Assembly (NCBI GenBank): GCA_009914755.4
Contig: CP086569.2
Location: 12,992,001 to 13,056,000, forward strand
Direction: 5' to 3'
DNA length: 64,000 nt
From: the human T2T-CHM13v2.0 reference genome, Homo sapiens
Positions 2,014-50,401 of this stretch are shown here, in pieces; position 1 is the first letter of the stretch, and every line of letters begins with the position of its first letter. Made by a program: the position numbers and the translations under genes. The notes under the pieces are model-generated. The model was not told the DNA's origin. It saw only the letters and a list, made by a program, of their open reading frames with translations, and made no database searches.

Positions 2014-3132
2014 TAAGAAACTAGATGTGTCAGCTTATTTCTTTGGCATCTCAGCTTTCTTGGGCTTTTGGGGATAGGTTTGCACAGACTTGCCCATTAT
2101 GGATGAGGTGTTTGGGAACACCTCATCCCAAAATTCAAGCCAGGAGGACAAAAGGTGAAGACAGTATCAGAGATGCAAAACCCAACCACCAAACCAATAG
2201 TCTAGTCCACCAAGAGATATCCCATTAACCCACAAACCCAGAAAGGTTTAGGTAAGACATTTGGGCTGAGAGGTGAGTGTCTCATGTTAAGGTCAACTAT
2301 GTGTAATGGCACATCTGCAGAATAATGCCAGTCAAAGTGTGCACTGCCTTCTGCTCTGAAGTCCATACAGTCAGGGGACATTACATCCATTCTCTCCGTC
2401 CAATGTGAGCTGAGTTCCTCCATGATCTAACCCTATCACATCACCTTCATCTTCTTGTCTGATTGTCTGATTGTTATGAACAATCAGAACAAGCCTCATG
2501 AAGTTAATCATGGTCTATGTAGCAGCAATAGCCCCAAGCCCCAACCTCCTCCAGACCCTCCAAAACACCTAGGATGGAGACCATGAATTCTCATTAACTT
2601 ATTCCAGCAAATTCAAGATATTCCAATGGACATGCCCATCTTGAACACATGGGCAAATGAACACTGTTAGATCCTGGAGTTGTTTAGCATAAAATACAGA
2701 AAATTTGCCTTTACCTAGGAGATAGAACTTTGAAAATAAAAGGAGCTCTGAAGATGAACCAGGATTCATTCCATCATTTCTCCAAATGAGGACTCTAACA
2801 CCAACAGGGTTAACAAGTGAGTCTTGGTGATATTGCTTGATCAGAGACAAGCCAGGAGAAATTCTCCAGAAATCCTGTCAGCTCCTAAACAGCTCTTGGA
2901 GATCCAACTCTATTACACTATAGGACTGGTATTTCTTGAGGGCTGTTAGGGGGAAAGCCGATGTAACTGTTGTGGCTAACAAGCATGACTCATTGGGTGT
3001 AATCACAAAGCAATTTTATTTTGTCTCTTACTAGCTCTTTCATATATATTCACTGGGGCTTAGAGAGTAGGGAGAGTTTTGTTGGCCTCTGGAGGAAATG
3101 ACAGCCAGCCCCATAACTTTTCTTTAAGCACA

Positions 3133-3907
3133 TGCTCTCTTTCTCCCTCCCTCTTTCCTTCCTTCCCTCTCTTTCCTTTTCTCCTCTCTTTCTCCATCCC
3201 TTCCTTCCTCTGTTTATCCATTTGTTCCTCTCTGTATGGCTCTCTGTCCTTCTTTCTCTTTCTCCCTTACCCTCTTCTCTTTCTCTCTTTTACTTTCTCC
3301 TCCTCCTACTCCTTCTATCTCTCTGTCTTTCTCCTTCCTCCATTCGTATATCTCTAACTATCTCATCTCTCTCTCCCAGTCTGCACTCCCTCTCCCTTAT
3401 CTCTTCTCTCTTTCTCCATTTCTCCTTTCTATTTACCATTCCTTCCTCTTTCTCTCTCACCGTCTTTCCCTCTCTTTCTCTTCCTTACTTCTCTTTCTCC
3501 CCTCTGCTTCCTATTTTTCTTTCTTTCTCTCTCCTTCTCCTCCTTCTTTTTCTCCCCTTCCCTCCCCTCTCTCTTTCTTTGTTTGGTCCTTTTTATATTT
3601 TTCCATTTCCCCCCTTCTTATTCTCTCCTTTCCTCTCTCTTTCTTCCTCTTTTTCTCTCTTTCTGACTCTGCCTCACTCTTCCTCCCTCCTTTCATTTTT
3701 TCCTTTCTCCTTTCCTTTCCTTTTCTTCCCTTTCTCTCTCCTTCCCTCCCTTCCTTTCTTCCTTCCTTCCCTTCTTCCTTCCTTCCTCTCTCTTCTTTCA
3801 TCCCTCTGTCTTTCTCCTTTCTTCTCTCTTCCTTCCTTTCCTTGTCTCCCTCTCTCTTCCTCCATTCTTCTCTCTCCCCTTCCCTTAATTTTTTCCCTCC
3901 CTCCATA
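3133..3907 (+). repeat. Long polypyrimidine (CT-rich: TCTC/CCTT/CTTT) low-complexity tract, about 775 bp
   Basis: Essentially only C and T on the + strand for about 775 bp. The overlapping 275-280 aa ORFs (S/L/F/P-rich) are translation artefacts. Confidence 0.95.
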
Positions 3908-4850
3908 CAAAAGGTGTGTGTCCTATCAGCATCTTCCACATCCACTTGGGAATCATTAAGTCAGAGGAGGATATTAAGAGAAGGCAACTTTGAGCTTCTT
4001 TTCATTCCACCCAGTGGCATAGGCCCAAGTGCAGGAGGAGAGGAAACCTGCTTGGCTCATGTGACGAGCTCTTTCTAGTGTAACTGTAGCAATGATAGAT
4101 AGAAGTCCTTATTTCTCCCCAAGCCCCCTGTAGACATTGCAGCAGGTTCCTAACCCAGTGGGAAGGGACATGCATGACTTACTCTTCAAAGGCTTCAAAG
4201 TCATCATCTAGGAGACCCTGAGAAGGATGGGCTGAGAAACAATGAACTCTGAGCTGTTATGCAATATCAGGGTTGCTTATGTAGCCCTATGGAGGCTGCA
4301 CAAATTTCTGGCTACATTCGCCTGTGACCTTGCAGTTTTTGTCATCTTATGCTATGACTGGGGGTTGCAGCTGCTGGATGTAAGTACAGCCAAAAATACC
4401 AACATTGACACTCACAGGCCGCTGAGGACCTTAAACCATAACATCTCTGGCTGCTGGTGTAGGTATTGTGCCTTATCAAGGAAGGGGCATCATTTCAGTG
4501 GCCTGAACAGAAGTTCAACTAAGTTTCAATGGGCTAAAATAAGGGTCTCTGCAAGAATGGTTCTTCTGGATGCTCCACGAATGAATCTATTTTCTTGCTT
4601 TTTCCAGCTTCTAGAGGTTGCTGTATTCCTTGGCTTGTGGTGCCTTCTTCCTTCTTCCACCATGCCAACTTCTACTCTCCTTGTCACATCTCCTTTTTCT
4701 CTTTCTCTGAATCCAAGTCTTCCTTCTATAAGAAGCATTGAGAATACATTGAACCCACCCAAACAATCCAGAATAATCTCCCCATCTCAAGATTTTTAAC
4801 TTGATCCCATCTGCAAAGTCAGCTTTACCACATAAATCAACATATTCATT

Positions 4851-5240
4851 GGACATGGACACCTTTGGGGCCATTATCCTGTCTACCACATGAGGATTAA
4901 GATATGGACATCTCTGGGGCCATTATTCTGTCTATTACATGGGGATTAGGATGCAGACATCTTTGGAGACATTATTTTGTCCACCACATGCAGATTAGAA
5001 TGTGGACATCTTTGGGACCATTAGTCTGTCTACCACATGGGGATTAGAATGAGGACATCTCTGGAGGCATTATTCTGTCTCCGACATAAGGATTAGGATA
5101 TAGACATCTTTGGGCACAATATTCTGTCTATATGGGGATTAGAATGTGGACATTTTGGGGGCCATTTTTTTTTCTGTCTACTGCACAGGGATTAAGACAT
5201 GGACATTTTGGGGTGGCCATTATTCATCTGACCACAATGG
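4851..5240. repeat. Minisatellite, about 49-50 bp unit x about 8 copies
   Basis: Repeating unit ggacatct(c/t)tgggg(c)cattattctgtctaccacatggggattag(g/a)atg... with point-variant copies in tandem. Confidence 0.9.
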
Positions 5241-7743: not shown

Positions 7744-8040
7744 GTCTAGGGAAGGTGGTTCACACCTATAATCCCAGCATTTTGGAAGGCCAAAGTGGGA
7801 GGATCACCAGAGCTCAGGAGTTCGAGACCATCCTGAGCAATATAGTGAAACCCTGTCTCTACAAAAATAAAAATAAAAATATTAGCCAGGCATGATTGCA
7901 CACACCTGTAGTCCCAGTTACTTGGGAGGCTGAGGTGGAAGGATCACTTGAGCCCATGAGTTTGAGTCTGCAGTGACCTATGATTACACCACTGTACTCC
8001 AGCCTGGGTGACAACAGAGTGAAACCATCTCTAAGACATA
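7744..8040 (+). mobile_element. Alu element (AluS-like)
   Basis: ggtggttcacacctataatcccagcattttggaaggccaaagtgggaggatcacc...ccactgtactccagcctgggtgacaacagagtgaaaccatctc; its tail merges into the GA-rich tract. Confidence 0.9.
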
Positions 8041-8499
8041 AAGAAAGAACTAAAAGAGAAAAGAAAAGAAGGAAGGCAGGAAGGAAGGAAGAAAGGAAGG
8101 AAGGAAGGAGTGAGGGAGGGAGGGAGGGAGGGAAAAAAGAAAGAAGGGAGAGAGAGGGAGAAAGAGAAGGAAGGAGAGTAGGAAAAAGGAAGGAAGGAAT
8201 GAAGAGAGGAAAGAAGAGAAAGAAGAAAGAATGAAGGAAGATAAAAAGACAGAAAGAAGGGAGAGAGGGAGGGAGGGAAGGAAAGTACAAAAAAGAAGGA
8301 AGAAAGAAGGAAGGAAGGAAGGAAAAAAGAGAAAAAGAAAGACAGAAAGAAAGAGAGAAAGAAAGGAGAGAGGAAGGAAGGAAGGAAGGAAGGAAGGAAG
8401 GAAGGAAGACAGAGAAAAAAAGAAAGAAACAAACAAACAAAGAGAAAGAAAAAAGAGAGAAAGAAAGAGAGAAAGAAAGAAAGGAAAAGAAAGAAAGAG

Positions 8500-8546
<47 letters not shown>

Positions 8547-8620
8547 GAAAGAAAGAAGGAAGGAAAGGAAGGAAGGAAGGAAAGGAAGGAAGGAAGGAAA
8601 GAAAGAAAGAGGGGGAACAG
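8041..8620 (+). repeat. Polypurine (GAAA/GGAA/GGGA)n tract, about 580 bp
   Basis: Only A/G for about 580 bp immediately 3' of the Alu, probably an expanded Alu A-tail. The K/E/R-rich ORFs here are artefacts. Confidence 0.95.
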
Positions 8621-9340
8621 AGAAGTCCATCATGGTGTGTTTGCAAGCCCTTTGCTTTTCTACCTGCCCTGTCTGTCTTTAATGAAATAACTCTTTTGGT
8701 CAGGATCTGAGCCATGAGTATGCTGCAGTTAGCTAAACCAAGACTTCCCTTCCACATTGTGCTGGCAGCGATCCCACAGACGACTGTGGGGCCCAAGAAA
8801 GACAGGTGAGTTAATATCACTCTCTATCCTTACCAGGAACCAGGGCCTGATACAGGCATCAGCTCTGGAGGTTCAGGCAGAATACTTTGCCAAGAGAAAT
8901 CACACCTAGAATTTGGCCTGGAAAACCTCTATACTTGTTTCTGACTCTTTGAATGTTATCATGAAAATATTTTCTAGCCATATTCCAACAATAGAATATT
9001 ATCCAGCCTTAAAAAAGAAAGAAGCTTTGACACACACTGCAGTGTGGATGAACCTTGAAAACACTAAGCTCAGTGAAAGAAACTCTTCACCAAGGACCAC
9101 ATATGGTATGATTCCATTGATAGGAAATGTTCAGAATAAGCAAATCCATAGACAGAAAGCAGATTAGTAGTTGCCAAGGGATGTGGGATCAGGAGTAATT
9201 GGAGAAATTGCAAGGATAGCTAAAGAGTGTGGAATTTCTTGTTGAATTGATGAGAATGTTCTAAAGTTGATTGTGGTGATTGCTGCACAGCTATGAACGT
9301 CCTAAAAATGATTGCTTTGTATACTTTAAATGGGAGAACT

Positions 9341-17342: not shown

Positions 17343-17909
<567 letters not shown>

Positions 17910-26580: not shown

Positions 26581-26890
26581 CTGGATGAAATTGGAAATCA
26601 TCATTCTCAGTAAACTATCTCAAGAACAAAAAACCAAACACCGCATATTCTCTCTCATAGGTGGGAATTGAACAATGAGAACACATGGACACAGGAAGGG
26701 GAACATCACACTCTGGGGACTGTTGTGGGGTGGGGGGAAGGGGGAGGGATAGCACTAGGAGATATACCTAATGCTAGATGACGAGTTAGTGGGTGCAGCG
26801 CACCAGCATGGCACATGTATACATATGTGACTAATCTGCACATTGTGCACATGTACCCTAAAACTTGAAGTATAATAATAAAAAAAGGGG
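26581..26890 (+). mobile_element. L1PA 3' end fragment
   Basis: ctggatgaaattggaaatcatcattctcagtaaactatctcaagaacaaaaaaccaaacaccgcatattctctctcataggtgggaattgaacaatgagaacacatggacacagg...gggtgcagcgcaccagcatggcacatgtatacat...cctaaaacttgaagtataataataaaaaaa. Confidence 0.9.
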
Positions 26891-27019
26891 GGGAGGCAGT
26901 GAAGAAGAGGAGAAAAAGCATCTGCAATTATCATTCCCCCGCATATAATCACAAAACATACTAATGTGTTTAAGTTGATGTGGGAGTTACCATGCATTTC
27001 CTGATCTTACCTCATTGCA

Positions 27020-28562
27020 AAACATCTTTTCTTTCCTTTCTTCCTTTTCTTTCTTTTTCCTTCCTTCCTGCTGGCTTTTCTTGCTCTTTTTTCTTTCCTC
27101 TTCCTTTTTCCTCTTTCTTCCTTTCCCCTCCCTCTCTTTCTCCCTCTCTCCTTCCTTCTTTCTCTTTTTTCTTTTTCTTTCTTTCTTCTTTTTCTTTTCT
27201 TTCTTTATTTCTTTCCTTTCTTTTTTCTCTCTCTTTCTTTTGCTTTATTTCTATTTTCTTTCCTCTCCTTTGTGCTCTTCCTTCCTTTCCCATCCCTCTC
27301 TTTCTCCCTCTCTGTATCCTTCCTTCCTTCCTTCTCTCTCTTTCTTTCTCTTTATTTCTTTTTTCTTTCCCCTTCCTTTTTGCTCTTTCTTCCTTTCCCC
27401 TCCCTCTCTTTCTCCCTCTCTCTCCTTCCTTCCTTCCTCCCTCCTTCCCCCTTCCCTCCCTCTCTTCTCTTTTCCCTTCACTTCCCTTCTCTTCTCCCTT
27501 CCCTTCTTTTCTCTCCTTCCTTCCCCCCCTTTCTTTCTTTCTCTCTCTTTTCTTTGTGTCTTTCTCTCTCTTTTTTCCTTCTTCTTTCATTCTTCTTCCC
27601 TTTTTCTTTCTTTCTTCCTTTCCCACTTCTCTTTTTCCCCCTCAATTTTCCTTCCCTCCCTTCCTTCTTTCCTTCCTTCCTGCCTTCCTCCCTTCCTGCC
27701 TTCCTCCCTCCCTCTCTTCCTCCCTCCCCCTCCTTCCCTCCATCTCCCTCTCTCCTCCCTTTCTTTTATATTCTTTTTTCTCTTTTCTTCTTTCTTTCTT
27801 TCTTTCATTCTTTCTTGCTTGCTTGCTTGCTTTCTCTCTCTTTCCTTTTCCTTTTTGTTCTTTCTTCCTTTACCTTCCCTTTCTTTCTCTCTCTCTATCC
27901 TTCCTTCCTTCCTCTCTCCTTCACTCTCTTCTCTCTTCTCTTCTCTCCTTCCTTCCTTCCTTTCCTCTTTGTCTTTCTTTTTTCTCTCTTTCTTTTTTTT
28001 CTTTCTTCTTCCTTTTTTCTTCTTTCTGTCTTCCTTTCCCCTCCTTCTCTTTTTCCCTCTCTCAATTTCCCCTCCCTTCCTTTCTTCCTGCCTTCCTGCC
28101 TTCCTTCCTCCCTCCCCCTCCTTCGCTCCTCCCCCTCCTTCCCTCCCTCCCCCTTCCTCCCCCCTTTCTTTTATATTCTTTTATTTTCTCTTTTCTTTCT
28201 TCTTCCTTTTTCTCTCTTTCACTTTCTTTTCTTTCTTCTGTTTCTCTCTTTCTTTCTTCCTTTCCCCTACCTCTCTTTCTCTCCCTCCCTTCTTCCCTCC
28301 CTTCATCCGTCTCTGTCTTTCTCCCTTCCTCTTCCTTCCCTTCTCTTCCCTTCCCCTCCCTCCCTCCCACCCTCCCTCCCTTCCTTCTTTTCCCTCTGTA
28401 TTCCTTTTTCTTCTTTCCTTCCTTTCTTTCTCTTTCTTCCTTTGCCTTTTCTCTTTTATTCTTTCTCCCTTTCTGCCTTTCTCGTGTACCTCCCTCCCTT
28501 CGTTTCCCCTTTCTTTCTTATTTCCTTCCTTGCTTGCTTTCTGCCTTCCTTTTTTTTTTTCC
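27020..28562 (+). repeat. Giant polypyrimidine (CT-rich: TTCC/TCTC/CTTT/CCCT) low-complexity tract, about 1.54 kb
   Basis: About 1540 bp almost exclusively C/T on the + strand, with rare g/a interruptions. The 434-534 aa ORFs and the antisense K/E/R/G-rich ORFs are artefacts. Confidence 0.95.
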
Positions 28563-28659
28563 AGAGCCCCTGTTAGTATCTTGAAGAACCAGACCCTTGC
28601 AGAATAGCCTGGGAGAAATGTTGCTGTACCATTAATGTCTCCCATGTTTTTTACTACAG

Positions 28660-29760
28660 TCTTCATGAATTCCACAGTAAACTCCAATTTCAAACTTCCT
28701 CTTGAGTTTTCGATCCACCTAGTGACTGTCCTGCATGCTCAACACAAAGATCATATGACACTGCATTATCTCAACCCTCCAGATTATCCATTCCCAGGAT
28801 CTCCTATTTCTCAAAATTTTTACCTGAAGCTTTCATCTCTCTTTCTCTAACATAATAATCTCTCTATTTTATTTTCTCTTTCCCACCAGAAGCCAATCAC
28901 CTACTTTGATTGAATAATTATTATGAACTGAATTAAACCCTTTTGCTCCAAATTCATGGGTTTCAGCAGTATAAATCCTCATGTGAGATTATGTGAAGAC
29001 AAAGCCTTCAGGGAGGTGATTGGGTTTAGGTAAAATCATAAGAGAGGGGTGTTAATCTGATATGGCTGGTGAATTTATAAGAAGAGGAAAACATTTCAGA
29101 GTTCTCCATCTGCACAAACACAGAAGGACAAACTGTGAAGACATGGTGAGAAGACAACATCTACAAGTCAATGAGGGAGGCCTCAGGAAGAACCAGCCTT
29201 GCCCACACCTTGATCTCAGATGTCCAGCTTCCTGGACTGTAGAAGAGTAAATGTCTGTTGTTTAAGCCTCCCTGTCTATGGCATTCTGTGATAGCAGTCT
29301 TATAAGGAGAGGAGATGAGGACACAGACACAGGCACAGAGACAACCATGTAATGACACAGGGAAAAGATGATGTCTACAAAGTAAGGGGAGAGGCCTCAG
29401 GAGGAACCTTCCCTGCCTACACCTTGATCTTGGATGTTCAGCTTCAAGGATTGTGGGAGAATCAATATCTATTATTTCTAAGCCACCCAGTCTATGGTAT
29501 TCTGTTATAGTATCCTGAAATACACTAAGATATCTCATTAGAAGATAAGATGAGGACACAGACACACACAGAGGGATGACCCTGTGAGGATACAACCCTG
29601 TGAGGACACAAGGAGAAGGTGGCATCTACAAGCCAAGGAGCAGGTCTCAGGAGAAACCAGCCCTGGGTACACCTTGATCTTAGACTTCCAGCTTCAAGGA
29701 CTGTGGGAGAATCAGTGTCTGTTGTTTGAGCCATCGGGTCTGTAGGACTTTGTTACGATA
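28660..29760 (+). mobile_element. MaLR-type (MLT1-like) LTR copy A, with a tandem triplication of its 3' roughly 230 bp (29100-29760)
   Basis: Shares about 640 bp of co-linear homology (roughly 88 percent identity) with 31005-31640. Contains ...ggaggtgattgggtttaggtaaaatcataagagagg... and ...ctgtagaagagtaaatgtctgttgtttaagcctccctgtctatggcattctgtgatagcag.... The last roughly 230 bp segment recurs three times in tandem. Confidence 0.6.
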
Positions 29761-30478: not shown

Positions 30479-30797
30479 CTAGGCTGCACACAGTGGCTCG
30501 TGACTGAAGTCCAGGAACTTTGGAAGGCAGAGATGGGAGAATCACTTGAGCCCAGAAGTTAGAGACCAGACTGTGCAACATACTGAGACTCTGTCTCTGC
30601 AAAAGAAAAAAAAAATGAACTGGGCATAGCGGTACACACCTGTAGTCCAACTTGGGAGGCTGAGGCAGAAGGATCACTTGAGTACCGGAGGTTGAGGCTG
30701 CAGTGAGCTATGACTGTACCGCTGTCCTCCAGCCTGGGGAACAGAGTGAGACACTGTCTCAAAAAAAAAAAAAAAAGAAAGAAAGAAAAGAAAAAAC
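30479..30797 (+). mobile_element. Alu element with an A/(GAAA)-rich tail
   Basis: aggctgcacacagtggctcgtgactgaagtccaggaactttggaaggcagagatgggagaatcacttgag...ccagcctggggaacagagtgagacactgtctcaaaaaaaaaaaaaaaagaaagaaagaaaag. Confidence 0.9.
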
Positions 30798-31004
30798 TCA
30801 AATTGTAAGTCTAAAATGCATTTAATACACCTACCCTAATGAATCCTGATACAAAGATTCTATTAAGCTGTTTATTTGGGTGGGGAGCAAGGAAGAACAA
30901 ACAGAAATTGGAGAAATGAGCTAGAGAGTGGAGAAAGTCCTTGGTCATCTTTACCAAGCAGGTGACCACCATGGATAACCAGGGTGAAGTCCCTGGCTGA
31001 AGTA

Positions 31005-31640
31005 AGCTCCAATTTCAAACTTCCTCTTGAGTATTTCAAACCACCTAGCCACTGTCCTGCAGTCTCAACACAAAGATCATGTGATACTGCATCATCTCAA
31101 CTCTCCAAATTATCCATTCCCAGGCTCTCCTATTTCTCAAAAATTTTACATGAAGCTCTTATGTCTCTTTCTCTAATTTAATACTCTCTACATTTTTATT
31201 CCCTCTTTCCCACCAGAAGCCAATCATCTACTTTGGTTGAATAATTACTATGAGCTGAATTATGCCCTTTTGCCCAAAATTCATGGGTTTAAGCCAGAAA
31301 ACCCCATGTGAGATTATGTGAAAACAGAGCCTTTAGGAGGTGATTGTGTTTAGGTAAAATCATAAGAGAGGAGTCTTAATCTTTATAAGAAGAGTAACCA
31401 TTTCAGAGTTCTCCCTCTGCACACACACAGAGGGACAACCACCTGAGGATACAGGGAGAAGATAGTGACTACAATCTACAAGCCAAGCAGAGAAGCCTCA
31501 AGAGGAAGCAGCCCTGCCCACACCTTAATCTCAGACTTATAGCCTCCGTGACCCTGAGAGAATCAATATCTGTTGTTTACAAGCCACTCAGTCTATGGTA
31601 TTCTGTGATAGCAGACTGAAATGGACTAAGACACTTCATA
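31005..31640 (+). mobile_element. MaLR-type (MLT1-like) LTR copy B
   Basis: gtaagctccaatttcaaacttcctcttgagtatttc...ggaggtgattgtgtttaggtaaaatcataagagagg...gagaatcaatatctgttgtttacaagccactcagtctatggtattctgtgatagcagactgaaatggactaagaca. Confidence 0.65.
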
Positions 31641-36984: not shown

Positions 36985-37700
36985 ATAGAAAAGTGAGAAG
37001 GATAATAGGTGAGTCAACAGATTATAGATGATTAGATAGATGAGATAGTTAATAGATATTAGAGATGGATAAATGATAGAGATAGATGGTAGATTAGACA
37101 TATGATATGATATGATATGATATGATATGATATGATATGATGTGATATGATATGATATGAGGATAGATGGATGGATGGATGTTGGATGGATGGATGATGG
37201 ATTGATGGATGGATGGATGGAGAGACTGACAGACAGAAGAATAGATAGATACAATAGTTGGATACATACATAGATATGACATATAGATAGATAGATGAGA
37301 TACACAGATATAGATGATAGCTATATAGATATGATACATGGATAGATACATGAGATACATAGATATAGATGGATAGATACATAGATATGATAGATGATAG
37401 ATACATAGATATGATGGACAGATGAGGTGCATAGATATAGATAGATACATAGATGTGATATATGGATAGATGAGATACATAGATATAGATTGATATATAT
37501 GATGGATGGATTGGTACATAGATATGATGGATAGATAAGATGCATAGATATAGATGATAGATACATAGATATGATATATGGATAGATGAGATACATGGAA
37601 GATATATGGGTACAAAGATTATCAAATAAATGGATGGTTGATAGACTGATAGATATAGATAGGTAGATATATAGCTAGATAGATGTAGCTTGTTACGAAC
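36985..37700. repeat. (GATA/GATG)n-derived complex microsatellite with higher-order repeats, about 0.7 kb
   Basis: gatatgatatgatatga..., then ggatggatggatg..., then repeated tagatacatagatatgat(a/g)gatagatgagatacatagatatagat blocks. The 91-231 aa antisense ORFs (I/Y/S/L-rich) are artefacts. Confidence 0.95.
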
Positions 37701-38442
37701 ACTTGAAATTCTTATTCCAAGTGCCAATTCCTCACCTTCCTCAATCAGGCCCACTTCAGTGACACTTAATCATTAGAAATGTTGCAACTGGCATGTGGTT
37801 GGAGGTTGGTTCTTAATGGGGAAGGGCCATGAGTAGTGGGCAAACAAGAGAGAAAAGGAACCCAGAAATGCAGAGGACATGGCAGTGAAGCTGTTTCATG
37901 TCTTGTACACTTCGGCAAGCCATCCTCCCTCCTCCATGGCAAAGGGCATCTGAGGTCGTGTAGGAGACAAGGAGCACCAGGGGGAAAGAGTGGCAATGAC
38001 AAGTTGGCACTGGCTAGGAGGTGCTGTGGAAACAGGAGCAGGAGCACAGCTGTGATGAGGCAACAGCTGACACAGTGTGGTTTGGATGAAGCTTGTGTGG
38101 CCAGGAGATTGTGGGCTGGTTAAAGGGGACCAAGAGAGTGAAAATGAATAGAATGAAGCCAGGAGTTGGGATATGCCTTGAGCAACACCTCACCCAGTCT
38201 TTCATTTTCCTTCTGGAAACACTGAAAAAAAATAAACTGGCAGGAAAAACAAATGTTTCACCACCTGGCTTTCCCAATTTATTTTGCATGAATTGCATGC
38301 ATTGTTTTTGATATCATCCCTGTGACTGAATTCACTAGTGATGGTTTCAGAAGGAAAATAGTTTGATGGTCTGGAAAGGAAAAAATGAATAGAAAAAATC
38401 ACTTAAAATAATGGATCTAGCATTAACCTTCTTCAATCTCTC

Positions 38443-39613: not shown

Positions 39614-39925
39614 GGCAGGTCATCGTGGCTCACAGCTGTATTCCAAGCACTTTGGGACACCAAAGTGGGAGAATTGTTTAAGACCAGGAGCTTGAGCCCA
39701 GAAGCTCAAGACCAGGCTGGGCAACACAGTGAGCCCCCATCTCTAAAAAAATAAAACAAAAATAATCAGCTGGGCATGCTGGTGCATGACTATACTACCA
39801 GCTCCTTGGGAGGCTGATGTGGGAGGATCACTTTAGCCTAGGAGGTCTAGGCTGCAGTGGGCTGTGATTACACCACTGCACTTCAGCCTGAGTGATGGAG
39901 AAAGACCCTGTCTCAAAAAAAAAGA
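39614..39925 (+). mobile_element. Alu element
   Basis: ggcaggtcatcgtggctcacagctgtattccaagcactttgggacaccaaagtgggag...ccactgcacttcagcctgagtgatggagaaagaccctgtctcaaaaaaaaag. Confidence 0.85.
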
Positions 39926-40036
39926 AAGAAGGAAAGAAGGAAGGAAGGAAGGAAGGAAGGAAGGAAGGAAGGAAGGAAGGAAGGAAGGGAAGGAGGGAGG
40001 GAGGGAGGGAGGGTGGGAGGGAGGGAGGCAGGAAAG
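39926..40036 (+). repeat. (GGAA)n/(GGGA)n tetranucleotide repeat from an Alu tail
   Basis: aaagaaggaaagaaggaaggaaggaaggaagg...gggagggagggagggagggtgggagggagggagg. Confidence 0.95.
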
Positions 40037-41217
40037 TCTCATTTTACCTATACGGAGAAAAAAAAGGAAAGATTGGAATTGCTCAAAGAAGAGAAAGATG
40101 GAATAGGAAGAGAAAGAAATGGATGAAGATGTGCACTTATTGAATCCTAAGTCACACCAAACATATAACAAAAAATAGCAAACACATATAACAAATCTTA
40201 CTCTATAGATGAGGAGATGCAGGTTTAAAGAGCAACTGGAAAGCAGATGGCGTAGGAATAAAAGATGAGTTCCAAGACAAGACCTCCAATGTGAGTTTTC
40301 CTGGCTTTAACATCTATCTTTCTCCCATACTGCCTTAGGCCTTTGGTGTGTGGGTTGAGCTTGGTTGGGAAAATATGGCCACCATATTGCTGGGAAAGCC
40401 ACCAAGAGTGGACTGTTACCAATATCCAAGGGACATGAGTCACTTCACATTTTCTTTCCTCTTGACTTTAAATACTCAGTGCTTTAATTTCAGACCAAAA
40501 TTTATTTTTTTTTTCCAGAGGGTGAAGGATCCTAAAATATTGTTGCCTTTGCTCCATAAACCCAATATTTTAGAAGAGTAATTCAAAGAGAAGTGTCATT
40601 AAATGATTACTCCATAGTGGAAAGCCTCAATTGCCCTCTGTTTGCCTTAGGGGAAGACCACAAAACAAAAGATGACAGCCAACCAATCATCACCATCCCT
40701 GTGGCAGTTCTGAGCCTTGGTCATGCCACATGTACCCTCCAGATAGCACACATTTCTCATGGGGCAGCCTGGGTGGGTGATGGGAAAGTAAAGCCACTTG
40801 TTCCAACACATTCCCAGAAGTATTAATTTTTGAAAATGATGCATGTGTAATTTAAAAATAAATATTCACCCACAGTAGAGTCAACAGGAATGTCAGTATG
40901 TCACGATCTCCTATACTTATTTCTACTGCAAATAAGAGAGGGAAAAATTGCAAAGCCTGAGATACACATTTATAAATGATAATATAATTATCCTCCTCCA
41001 ATAATCAGGATGTTATAGTCAAAAAAAAAATACGCTGTCAATGTTCAACTCACTAGGTTATATAGGCAGTATAGGCAGGTATGTATTTAAATTTATTCAA
41101 AGGTGATAAAAGGGGATTCAAACGTAAGAACTAATGAGGATGAATGTTATACAATATTCTCACCTGAGATGAAAAGAGAACTAAGTTTGAAGATATTGGA
41201 CTTTAATTGAAGACATA

Positions 41218-49994: not shown

Positions 49995-50315
49995 GGACAT
50001 GGATGAAATTGGAAATCATCATTCTCAGTAAACCATCTCAAGAACAAAAAACCAAAAACCGTATACTCTCACTCATAGGTGGGAATTGAACAATGAGAAC
50101 ACATGGACACAGGAAGGGGAACATCACACTCTGGGGACTGTAGTGGGGTGGGGAGAGGGGGTACGGATAGCTTTAGGAGATATACCTAATGCTAAATGAC
50201 GAGTTAATGGGTGTAGCACACCAGCATAGCACATGTATACATATGTAACTAACCTGAACATTGTGCACATGTACCCTAAAATTTAAAGTATAATAATAAT
50301 AAAATATAAAAAAAT
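49995..50315 (+). mobile_element. L1PA 3' end fragment with A-rich tail
   Basis: ggacatggatgaaattggaaatcatcattctcagtaaaccatctcaagaacaaaaaaccaaaaaccgtatactctcactcataggtgggaattgaacaatgagaacacatgg...catgtaccctaaaatttaaagtataataataataaaatataaaaaaa. Confidence 0.9.
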
Positions 50316-50401
50316 ACAGAAAAGTAGATCATATTTTCCCACCAGGGACAATATTGTCACCAATGAGACAAAAATTGGTTCTTGAGGAGTGAAAAAAAAA
50401 A

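What the first reader, a model, noticed from the sequence alone, without database searches (positions are those of the whole stretch)
27020..28562. Exceptionally long (about 1.54 kb) pure polypyrimidine tract
For about 1540 bp the + strand is essentially only C and T (TTCC, TCTC, CTTT and CCCT motif families, partly mirror-symmetric). Tracts of this kind adopt intramolecular triplex (H-DNA) structures. They stall replication and transcription, and are associated with fragile sites, length polymorphism and assembly gaps. It is not visibly derived from a neighbouring Alu tail, unlike the GA tract at 8041-8620. The window holds two more tracts (3133-3907 CT-rich; 8041-8620 GA-rich on +, i.e. opposite strand polarity), about 3 kb of mirror-repeat DNA in 64 kb.
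Basis: partly seen in the sequence, partly recalled or inferred. Interest (0 to 1): 0.55.

Follow-up and report, generated by a model that had tools for sequence, protein, structure and literature searches.

The report
Long degenerate polypyrimidine low-complexity repeat
A real 1.5 kb stretch of primate non-coding DNA that is about 96% C and T on one strand: an old, decayed compound repeat of a well-known kind, with only modest triplex-forming potential and no sign of function.

Summary
Window 27025-28562 (1538 bp) is 95.7% C+T on the + strand, far beyond chance. It is not "pure": 66 purines interrupt it, about one per 23 bp, and the longest clean run is 123 bp.

It is not a live microsatellite, since no unit repeats perfectly more than 4-5 times. 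It is a compound repeat built from a ~37 bp core present seven times, 107-165 bp modules (90-97% identical) and a ~410 bp higher-order duplication (88% identical). Differences between copies show transitions and transversions in a neutral-like ratio (43:27), so nothing appears to preserve pyrimidine purity.

By published H-DNA criteria, only 9 motifs with arms of 10-13 nt qualify. They cover 197 bp (13%), a density similar to the PKD1 intron 21 tract. The two Alu-tail GA tracts in the window are better triplex candidates, with arms up to 25-26 nt. The tract also holds six G4/i-motif patterns, and its + strand has no hairpin potential.

No adjacent retroelement tail was found. I could not retrieve other alleles, the locus or the gene context.

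Verdict: an ordinary member of the known class of long purine·pyrimidine tracts. The H-DNA reading is only partly supported, and the fragility and polymorphism claims are untested.

The parts
27025..28562 (+). Whole polypyrimidine (+ strand) / polypurine (- strand) tract, 1538 bp, 95.7% C+T, 66 purine interruptions
27084..27206 (+). Longest uninterrupted pyrimidine run (123 bp); the next longest are 27383-27479 (97 bp) and 27481-27555 (75 bp)
27085..27438 (+). Left block of short modules: a 66-bp segment at 27085-27150 recurs at 27357-27422 (97%) and at 27254-27313 (92%); a 107-bp tandem pair lies at 27225-27332 and 27332-27438 (90%)
27450..28354 (+). Higher-order tandem duplication of about 400-420 bp (27450-27960 aligns to 27873-28354, 88% identity over ungapped columns, score 343 against 150+-17 for shuffles). 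The copies share rare purine markers (CTCAATTT, CCTGCCTTCC, TTTTATATTC)
27106..28288 (+). Seven copies of a ~37-bp core CTTTCTTCCTTTCCCCTCCCTCTCTTTCTCCCTCTCT, starting at 27106, 27271, 27378, 27610, 27857, 28021 and 28249
27577..28381 (.). Nine canonical H-DNA motifs (arm 10-13 nt, spacer <8, >=90% Y, AT <80%): 27577-27599, 27924-27947, 28000-28027, 28111-28138, 28131-28163, 28282-28302, 28334-28354, 28354-28380, 28357-28381. Together they cover 197 bp
27168..27246 (.). Best imperfect mirror repeat (39-nt arms, 5 mismatches, 1-nt spacer); too T-rich to pass the AT filter for much of its length
27439..28376 (-). Six C3+N1-7 x4 patterns (i-motif on +, G-quadruplex on -): 27439-27460, 27722-27748, 28131-28153, 28283-28301, 28338-28360, 28362-28376
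26582..26887 (+). Left neighbour: 3' end of an L1 with its poly(A) tail (82-92% identical to four other L1 3' ends in the window). It lies 137 bp from the tract, and its tail is A-rich on the + strand, the wrong polarity to have seeded a T/C tract
28563..28675 (.). Right flank with no other copy in the window (113 bp), preceded by a T12 run at 28549-28560
28676..29308 (+). Right neighbour: copy of an interspersed repeat (81% identical paralogue at 31001-31625); its edge lies 113 bp from the tract

Best explanation
This is a non-coding, degenerate, compound polypyrimidine·polypurine low-complexity repeat in primate DNA rich in Alu and L1 elements.

How it most likely arose (inferred): a pyrimidine-only seed of CTTT, CCTT, CCCT and CT microsatellites grew by slippage. 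It then grew by unequal exchange or duplication of larger blocks, namely a ~37-bp core, 107-165-bp modules and a ~410-bp higher-order unit. It has since been decaying by ordinary point mutation and small indels, with no selection for purity.

What it does today follows passively from composition:
- Neither strand can form hairpins.
- The duplex carries nine short H-DNA motifs and six G4/i-motif patterns. Under negative supercoiling these could transiently form short triplexes or quadruplexes and slow polymerases.
- Sequences like this are hard to sequence and assemble.

The most likely biological role is none. It is probably a neutral tract that is mildly prone to instability and length variation.
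For: Shown:
- Composition and boundaries.
- Internal direct-repeat architecture at offsets of 107, 165, 272, 408 and 475 bp.
- Copies are 88-97% identical, each with private substitutions and indels.
- Differences between copies are 43 transitions to 27 transversions: 38:17 for the higher-order unit and 5:10 for the modules. Changes that create purines are therefore not avoided.
- No perfect short tandem run exceeds 4-5 units.
- Mirror symmetry is only modestly above shuffles, with nine qualifying H-DNA motifs covering 197 bp.
- Six G4/i-motif patterns.
- The + strand folds to 0 kcal/mol, against -122 kcal/mol for a control kilobase.
- The only Rfam family hit in the window is an Alu-type SRP match elsewhere.
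- The 434-534 aa ORFs in all three + frames encode only F/S/L/P-rich strings. This is expected because stop codons need purines.

From the literature:
- The kind is well known (PKD1 tract, PMC11667243; genome-wide H-DNA census, PMC11879447).
- GA-rich DNA causes HiFi coverage dropout (PMC9186530).
Against: - Neutrality is inferred from one sequence. The transition/transversion count is small, and alignment within two-letter DNA is ambiguous.
- No orthologues or other alleles could be retrieved, so neither conservation nor polymorphism was measured.
- The genomic locus, gene context and transcription status are unknown.
- Four R·Y tracts in 64 kb, three of them with uninterrupted runs >=100 bp, is a denser cluster than I would expect from my recollection of Bacolla et al. 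2006 (about 2900 such runs per genome). This could reflect a regional property that I did not explain.
Confidence: 0.82

Rival explanations
1. One reading: the tract is a potent intramolecular-triplex (H-DNA) element that stalls replication and transcription and makes the locus fragile, highly length-polymorphic and hard to assemble.
For: - The tract is R·Y-biased over 1.5 kb.
- It has nine canonical H-DNA motifs at about 80 times the genome-average density.
- Its motif density is comparable to the PKD1 intron 21 tract, which forms triplexes in vitro and stalls forks (PMC11667243).
- GA-rich DNA causes HiFi dropout (PMC9186530).
- Modules that are 88-97% identical could support unequal exchange.
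Against: - Only 13% of the tract lies in qualifying motifs, and arms are 10-13 nt, against up to 797 nt elsewhere in the genome.
- Mirror symmetry is barely above shuffles (z about 3.7; the best imperfect score of 24 is within the null maximum of 25).
- There is a purine interruption about every 23 bp.
- Symmetry-breaking changes abolish H-DNA and interruptions stabilise repeats (PMC11667243).
- No run exceeds 4-5 perfect units, so slippage should be slow.
- No data on this locus were obtainable.
Confidence: 0.3
2. Origin from a retroelement tail: the tract grew out of the poly(A) tail (poly(T) on the + strand) of an old minus-strand retroposon whose 3' end would lie at 28563 onwards. This would parallel the two GA tracts in the window that grew from Alu tails.
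For: - A T12 run at 28549-28560 ends the tract directly against the right flank.
- Two of the four R·Y tracts in the window (8031-8635 and 39907-40042) start exactly at Alu 3' ends, so this route operates locally.
Against: - The 113 bp right of the tract match nothing else in the window, and the nearest recognisable repeat edge is at 28676.
- The only adjacent tail, that of the L1 at 26877-26887, has the wrong polarity and lies 137 bp away.
- No transposable-element library was available, so an ancient element cannot be excluded.
Confidence: 0.2
3. Functional element: if transcribed in the + sense, the tract would give a 1.5-kb pyrimidine-only RNA segment that binds PTBP1, PCBP or hnRNP K proteins (a sponge or splicing modulator). 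Alternatively, it acts as a GA-factor-bound or nucleosome-organising regulatory element.
For: - YUCUYY and YYUCUY motifs occur at 111-115 per kb, against about 3.8 per kb in the background.
- C-patches occur at 59 per kb, against 10.5 per kb in the background.
- The strand is completely unstructured.
Against: - These motif densities follow automatically from the composition.
- The decay pattern is neutral-like.
- There is no Rfam match and no evidence of transcription.
- The longest (GGAA)n on the - strand is 4 units, which I recall is too short for GGAA-microsatellite enhancer activity.
Confidence: 0.05
4. Assembly or sequencing artefact: the tract, or its length, was produced by mis-assembly of low-complexity reads.
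For: GA/CT-rich DNA is a known trouble spot for sequencing coverage (PMC9186530).
Against: - Internal copies are 88-97% identical rather than 100%, and each carries private substitutions and indels.
- The sequence is aperiodic, with many unique purine landmarks.
- Both junctions run into ordinary unique DNA.
- A collapsed or duplicated assembly would give identical copies.
Confidence: 0.03

Closest known systems
PKD1 intron 21 pyrimidine-rich element (2.5-kb polypyrimidine tract; Van Raay et al. 1996, as reviewed in PMC11667243)
   Same: Both are kilobase-scale, strongly pyrimidine-biased on one strand, irregular rather than a single microsatellite, and dotted with many short mirror repeats. 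Densities are similar: 11 perfect mirror repeats in 1.54 kb here against 23 perfect and 4 imperfect in 2.5 kb there. Both also carry G4-capable C/G runs.
   Different: - This tract is shorter.
- Its gene context is unknown, whereas PKD1's is intronic in a GC-rich gene.
- This window is about 40% GC and L1-rich.
- No experimental evidence exists for this tract.
- Here a clear ~410-bp higher-order duplication and a recurring 37-bp core are documented.
Long uninterrupted homopurine·homopyrimidine tracts of the human genome (Bacolla et al. 2006, NAR 34:2663; recalled from memory, paper not held)
   Same: It contains a 123-bp uninterrupted R·Y run and lies in a local cluster with two more runs of at least 100 bp (179 bp at 8439-8617 and 104 bp at 3696-3799).
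   Different: It does not reach the 250-bp uninterrupted class that the paper emphasised. Its total length comes from many short runs separated by purines.
Alu/L1 poly(A)-tail-derived GA-rich microsatellites, such as the (AAGGG)n in the RFC1 AluSx3 tail (PMC11667243), and the window's own tracts at 8031-8635 and 39907-40042
   Same: It uses the same unit families (AAAG/CTTT, AAGG/CCTT, AGGG/CCCT).
   Different: - No retroelement 3' end abuts this tract.
- It is 2.5-11 times longer than the window's own tail-derived tracts.
- It is far more degenerate.
- It is organised into large duplicated modules.
Expandable triplex-forming disease repeats, such as (GAA)n in FXN
   Same: It has R·Y composition and the same kind of potential for polymerase blockage.
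   Different: Those are long, pure, single-unit repeats with perfect mirror symmetry. Here no unit repeats more than 4-5 times, and interruptions are frequent.

Membership tests
Long homopurine·homopyrimidine (R·Y) tract | One strand almost exclusively purine or pyrimidine over a long stretch, with an uninterrupted run of at least 100 bp | tested here: met
   95.7% Y over 1538 bp; longest pure run 123 bp at 27084-27206
Long homopurine·homopyrimidine (R·Y) tract | Uninterrupted run of at least 250 bp (the stricter class of Bacolla et al. 2006, recalled from memory) | tested here: not met
   Longest run is 123 bp
H-DNA motif (non-B-gfa criteria as used in PMC11879447) | Mirror repeat with arms of at least 10 nt, spacer under 8 nt, at least 90% AG or CT, and AT content under 80% | tested here: met
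   9 of 11 perfect mirror repeats pass; arms 10-13 nt; 197 bp covered (criteria)
H-DNA motif (non-B-gfa criteria as used in PMC11879447) | Mirror symmetry exceeding what the composition alone gives | tested here: inconclusive
   11 repeats against 4.2+-1.8 in dinucleotide shuffles. The best imperfect score is 24, against 15.6+-2.2 with a null maximum of 25. The excess is modest and comes partly from short-unit two-letter repeats, which are inherently mirror-symmetric.
H-DNA motif (non-B-gfa criteria as used in PMC11879447) | Actual triplex formation under supercoiling or low pH (S1, permanganate or chemical probing) | not testable with these tools
   Needs experiment or ssDNA-seq data
PKD1-type pyrimidine-rich element | Kilobase-scale irregular polypyrimidine tract containing many separate mirror repeats | tested here: met
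   1.54 kb with 11 perfect mirror repeats (7.2 per kb), against 23 perfect and 4 imperfect in 2.5 kb
PKD1-type pyrimidine-rich element | Located in an intron of a transcribed gene, with orientation-dependent polymerase or fork arrest | not testable with these tools
   Locus and gene context could not be identified; no eukaryotic genome search was available
Retroelement poly(A)-tail-derived microsatellite | The tract starts at the 3' end of an Alu or L1, with the purine-rich strand continuing the element's sense strand | tested here: inconclusive
   Not met for any element recognisable by comparison within the window. The L1 tail at 26877-26887 has the wrong polarity and lies 137 bp away, and the right flank 28563-28675 has no other copy in the window. 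An ancient element cannot be excluded without Dfam.
SVA 5' hexamer region | Tandem (CCCTCT)n followed by an Alu-like region | tested here: not met
   At most one perfect CCCTCT copy; no Alu similarity in either flank
Active or expandable microsatellite | Long uninterrupted array of one short unit | tested here: not met
   Maximum perfect copies: TTCC 4, CTTT 4, CCCT 3, CT 5, CTT 3. Tandem Repeats Finder short-period rows show only 61-78% matches.
G-quadruplex / i-motif motif | Four runs of at least 3 G (or C) separated by loops of 1-7 nt | tested here: met
   Six matches on the C-rich + strand within the tract, out of eight C-type matches in the whole window. Folding was not tested.
Protein-coding gene | An ORF with a plausible protein product | tested here: not met
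   ORFs of 534, 530 and 434 aa occur in all three + frames at once and encode F/S/L/P strings. This is a consequence of DNA without stop codons. They are absent from the public gene-call collection.

The most novel reading that the evidence does not exclude
The tract is a pyrimidine-only minisatellite with higher-order structure (~410-bp unit built of ~107-165-bp modules). It varies in copy number among haplotypes and, together with the three other R·Y tracts within 37 kb, marks a regional hotspot of replication pausing, recombination or structural variation. Alternatively, if the host gene runs in the + sense, it supplies a 1.5-kb intronic PTBP1/PCBP-binding RNA platform that influences splicing, by analogy with the abnormal splicing linked to the PKD1 intron 21 tract.
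Probability: 0.07. Interest if true: 0.5.

Novelty: new member of a known kind. Interest (0 to 1): 0.15.

Why it matters
This tract matters little beyond bookkeeping. It is a good example of a kilobase-scale R·Y tract that is easy to over-read. Strand purity alone does not make a strong H-DNA element, because mirror symmetry and uninterrupted length do, and both are weak here.

In practice, such a tract can cause read dropout, alignment ambiguity and spurious long ORFs, so it is worth masking. If population data showed module-level copy-number variation, it would be a usable minisatellite-type marker and a natural test case for how interrupted R·Y tracts behave compared with PKD1.

Tried and rejected
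- **Other alleles or copies.** Exact-protein look-ups of four ORFs spanning the tract or its flanks found nothing. Exact 25-30-mers from both flanks were absent from the metagenome and prokaryote genome collections. Polymorphism and orthology therefore could not be examined.
- **Structured RNA.** The Rfam scan of the whole window found only an Alu-type SRP match at 17537-17653, and nothing in or near the tract.
- **Protein coding.** Rejected, because the long ORFs are composition artefacts.
- **PRDM9 hotspot motif.** There is no CCNCCNTNNCCNC or CCTCCCTNNCCAC in the tract.
- **SVA hexamer origin and GGAA-microsatellite enhancer.** Rejected on repeat counts.
- **Hairpin or cruciform.** The + strand folds to 0 kcal/mol. 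There is also no long inverted repeat with the opposite-polarity GA tract, only a 51-bp low-complexity match.
- **Common origin of the four tracts by segmental duplication.** Rejected, because only short low-complexity matches occur and their flanks are unrelated.
- **Bacolla et al. 2006.** The paper could not be read, so its numbers are from memory.
- **Locus and gene.** I did not try to identify them with the expensive protein searches, because the answer would not change the classification.

Full report
**1. What the sequence shows**

The window is primate DNA rich in Alu and L1 elements. Rfam's only hit at its gathering (family inclusion) threshold is an Alu-type SRP match at 17537-17653. 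Self-comparison finds about twenty Alu copies, several L1 3' ends and a near full-length L1 at about 50.3-56.4 kb.

- **Edges.** Read directly, the tract runs from 27025, after "aaaaca", to 28562, before "agagcc". That is 1538 bp at 95.7% C+T.
- **Chance.** Outside the four biased tracts the pyrimidine fraction is 0.477 and the longest R or Y run is 36 bp. The binomial tail for the tract underflows to zero, so chance is excluded.
- **Purity.** The tract is not pure. It holds 66 purines (31 A, 35 G) with a median spacing of 18 bp. The longest clean runs are 123, 97 and 75 bp.

**2. Anatomy**

The tract is not a working microsatellite. The longest perfect arrays are (TTCC)4, (CTTT)4, (CCCT)3, (CT)5 and (CTT)3. 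Tandem Repeats Finder's short-period rows show only 61-78% matches.

Larger direct repeats dominate instead:
- Self-BLAST without low-complexity masking gives hits at offsets of 107, 165, 272, 408 and 475 bp.
- A 66-bp segment at 27085-27150 recurs at 27357-27422 (97%) and at 27254-27313 (92%).
- A 107-bp unit is tandemly duplicated at 27225-27332 and 27332-27438 (90%).
- The region 27450-27960 aligns with 27873-28354 at 88% identity over ungapped columns. The score is 343, against 150+-17 for shuffles. This is a tandem duplication of roughly 410 bp that shares rare purine landmarks (CTCAATTT, CCTGCCTTCC, TTTTATATTC).
- A 37-bp core (CTTTCTTCCTTTCCCCTCCCTCTCTTTCTCCCTCTCT) occurs seven times across the tract.
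- T-rich and C-rich blocks alternate accordingly.

**3. Is purity maintained?**

Differences between the internal copies total 43 transitions and 27 transversions: 38:17 for the higher-order unit and 5:10 for the modules. Within a pyrimidine tract, transversions are the changes that create purines, and they are clearly not avoided. The ratio is what unconstrained primate DNA gives (my own knowledge: about 2:1). The counts are small, and alignment in two-letter DNA is ambiguous, so this is suggestive only. It points to neutral decay of an older and purer repeat.

**4. Non-B DNA potential**

I used the published criteria: arm at least 10 nt, spacer under 8 nt, at least 90% AG/CT, and AT under 80% (PMC11879447).

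| Region | Perfect mirror repeats | Passing all filters | bp covered | Longest arm |
|---|---|---|---|---|
| Main tract 27025-28562 | 11 | 9 | 197 (12.8%) | 13 nt |
| 3116-3910 | 6 | 6 | 127 | 12 nt |
| 8031-8635 (Alu tail) | 48 | 48 | 275 | 25 nt |
| 39907-40042 (Alu tail) | 21 | 21 | 90 | 26 nt |

- **Symmetry against shuffles.** Dinucleotide shuffles of the main tract give 4.2+-1.8 mirror repeats, with a longest arm averaging 12. The best imperfect mirror has 39-nt arms with 5 mismatches at 27168-27246. It scores 24, against a null of 15.6+-2.2 with a maximum of 25. Mirror symmetry is therefore only modestly above what composition gives. Part of the excess is automatic, because any two-letter repeat unit of five bases or fewer equals its own reversal up to rotation (direct reasoning).
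- **Comparison with the genome.** Coverage is about 80 times the genome mean of 1588.88 bp per Mb. However, the arms are tiny next to the genome's longest, at 797 nt.
- **Comparison within the window.** The two Alu-tail GA tracts are more regular and are the better triplex candidates. The whole window holds 712 bp of qualifying H-DNA motif, not "about 3 kb".
- **Quadruplex patterns.** The tract carries six C3+N1-7 x4 patterns, which read as i-motif on the + strand and G-quadruplex on the - strand. That is six of the eight C-type matches in the window.
- **Hairpins.** The + strand has no hairpin potential: 0 kcal/mol over 1000 nt, against -122 kcal/mol for a control kilobase.
- **Sensitivity to interruptions.** The review notes that single symmetry-breaking changes abolish H-DNA and that interruptions stabilise repeats. 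This argues against treating the full 1.5 kb as one strong H-DNA element.

**5. Surroundings and origin**

- **Left side.** An L1 3' end with its poly(A) tail lies at 26582-26887 on the + strand. It is followed by 137 bp that match nothing else in the window. The tail is A-rich on the + strand, which is the wrong polarity to seed a T/C tract.
- **Right side.** A T12 run at 28549-28560 ends the tract. After it come 113 bp with no other copy in the window, and then an interspersed repeat at 28676-29308 whose 81% paralogue lies at 31001-31625.
- **Other tracts.** The GA tracts at 8031-8635 and 39907-40042 begin exactly at Alu 3' ends.
- **Relationship between tracts.** The four tracts are not copies of one another. 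Only short low-complexity matches occur, and their flanks are unrelated.
- **Tail origin.** I could not test whether 28563-28675 is the 3' end of an ancient minus-strand retroposon, because no transposable-element library is available. That origin remains possible, at about 0.2.
- **SVA origin.** Excluded, since there is at most one CCCTCT copy and no Alu-like flank.

**6. Things that are not there**

- The ORFs of 534, 530 and 434 aa in all three + frames are artefacts of DNA that lacks stop codons.
- There is no Rfam family in or near the tract.
- There is no PRDM9 13-mer, degenerate or strict.
- There is no (GGAA)n longer than 4 units.
- An assembly artefact is unlikely. The copies are 88-97% identical rather than 100%, each has private changes, and both junctions run into ordinary DNA.

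**7. What could not be done**

- No other allele, orthologue or copy could be retrieved by four exact-ORF look-ups or four flank-pattern scans. Length polymorphism, conservation and fragility therefore remain untested.
- The locus, the host gene and the direction of transcription are unknown.
- Bacolla et al. 2006 is not held. From memory, it reported about 2900 uninterrupted R·Y runs of at least 100 bp and 814 of at least 250 bp in the human genome. By that measure this tract falls in the first class only. Three runs of at least 100 bp within 25 kb (123, 179 and 104 bp) would then be an unusually dense local cluster.
- Literature does support the claim that GA-rich sequence causes HiFi coverage dropout and graph fragmentation (PMC9186530).

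**8. Verdict**

The object is an ordinary, old, degenerate compound polypyrimidine·polypurine repeat with an internal higher-order duplication structure. It is a new member of a well-known kind, and its closest studied relative is the PKD1 intron 21 tract.

Its most likely "function" is none. Its effects are passive consequences of composition: short triplex and quadruplex motifs, polymerase and sequencing difficulty, and possibly module-level length variation.

Interest is low, at 0.15. The most novel reading not excluded is a copy-number-variable pyrimidine minisatellite marking a regional instability or recombination hotspot, or an intronic PTBP1/PCBP platform. I give that about 7% probability.

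Noticed in passing
window 39907-40042: A fourth purine-rich tract (90% R, 99-bp pure run at 39915-40013) starts at the tail of a + strand Alu. It holds 21 canonical H-DNA motifs with arms up to 26 nt, plus two G4 patterns.
   Followed up: partly
window 8031-8635: The Alu-tail-derived GA tract is the most regular R·Y tract in the window. It has a 179-bp uninterrupted purine run at 8439-8617 and 48 H-DNA motifs with arms up to 25 nt, and 45% of it is covered. It is a better triplex candidate than the 1.5-kb tract.
   Followed up: partly
window 3116-3910: A second CT-rich tract (92.5% Y, 104-bp pure run) whose flanks have no other copy in the window and no adjacent Alu or L1 tail. It has the same polarity as the main tract but is not homologous to it.
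   Followed up: partly
window 37033-37754: A degenerate (GATA)n-type array of about 650 bp with a 116-bp higher-order period and strong G-over-C skew (GC skew 0.45). It generates spurious 173-231 aa ORFs on the minus strand.
   Followed up: no
window 28676-29308 and 31001-31625: Two 81%-identical copies of the same interspersed repeat lie 2.3 kb apart in the same orientation, with an Alu (about 30482-30795) between them. The first copy is followed by internal tandem-like repeats at 29113-29755. The family was not identified.
   Followed up: partly
window 4851-5166: A 49/98-bp tandem repeat (6.5 copies, 75-79% matches) lies about 1 kb downstream of the first CT tract.
   Followed up: no
window 26888-26912: A G7 run and a short purine-rich stretch (gggggggaggcagtgaagaagaggagaaaaagc) directly follow the L1 poly(A) tail. 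This is a small tail-derived purine extension of opposite polarity to the main tract, which starts 137 bp beyond the tail.
   Followed up: no
window 50000-56433: A near full-length + strand L1 with long ORF2 fragments is preceded by another L1 3' end at 50000-50304. All the larger L1 pieces seen are on the + strand. If the window is intronic, this would weakly suggest a minus-strand gene, given the antisense bias of L1 in genes (own knowledge).
   Followed up: no
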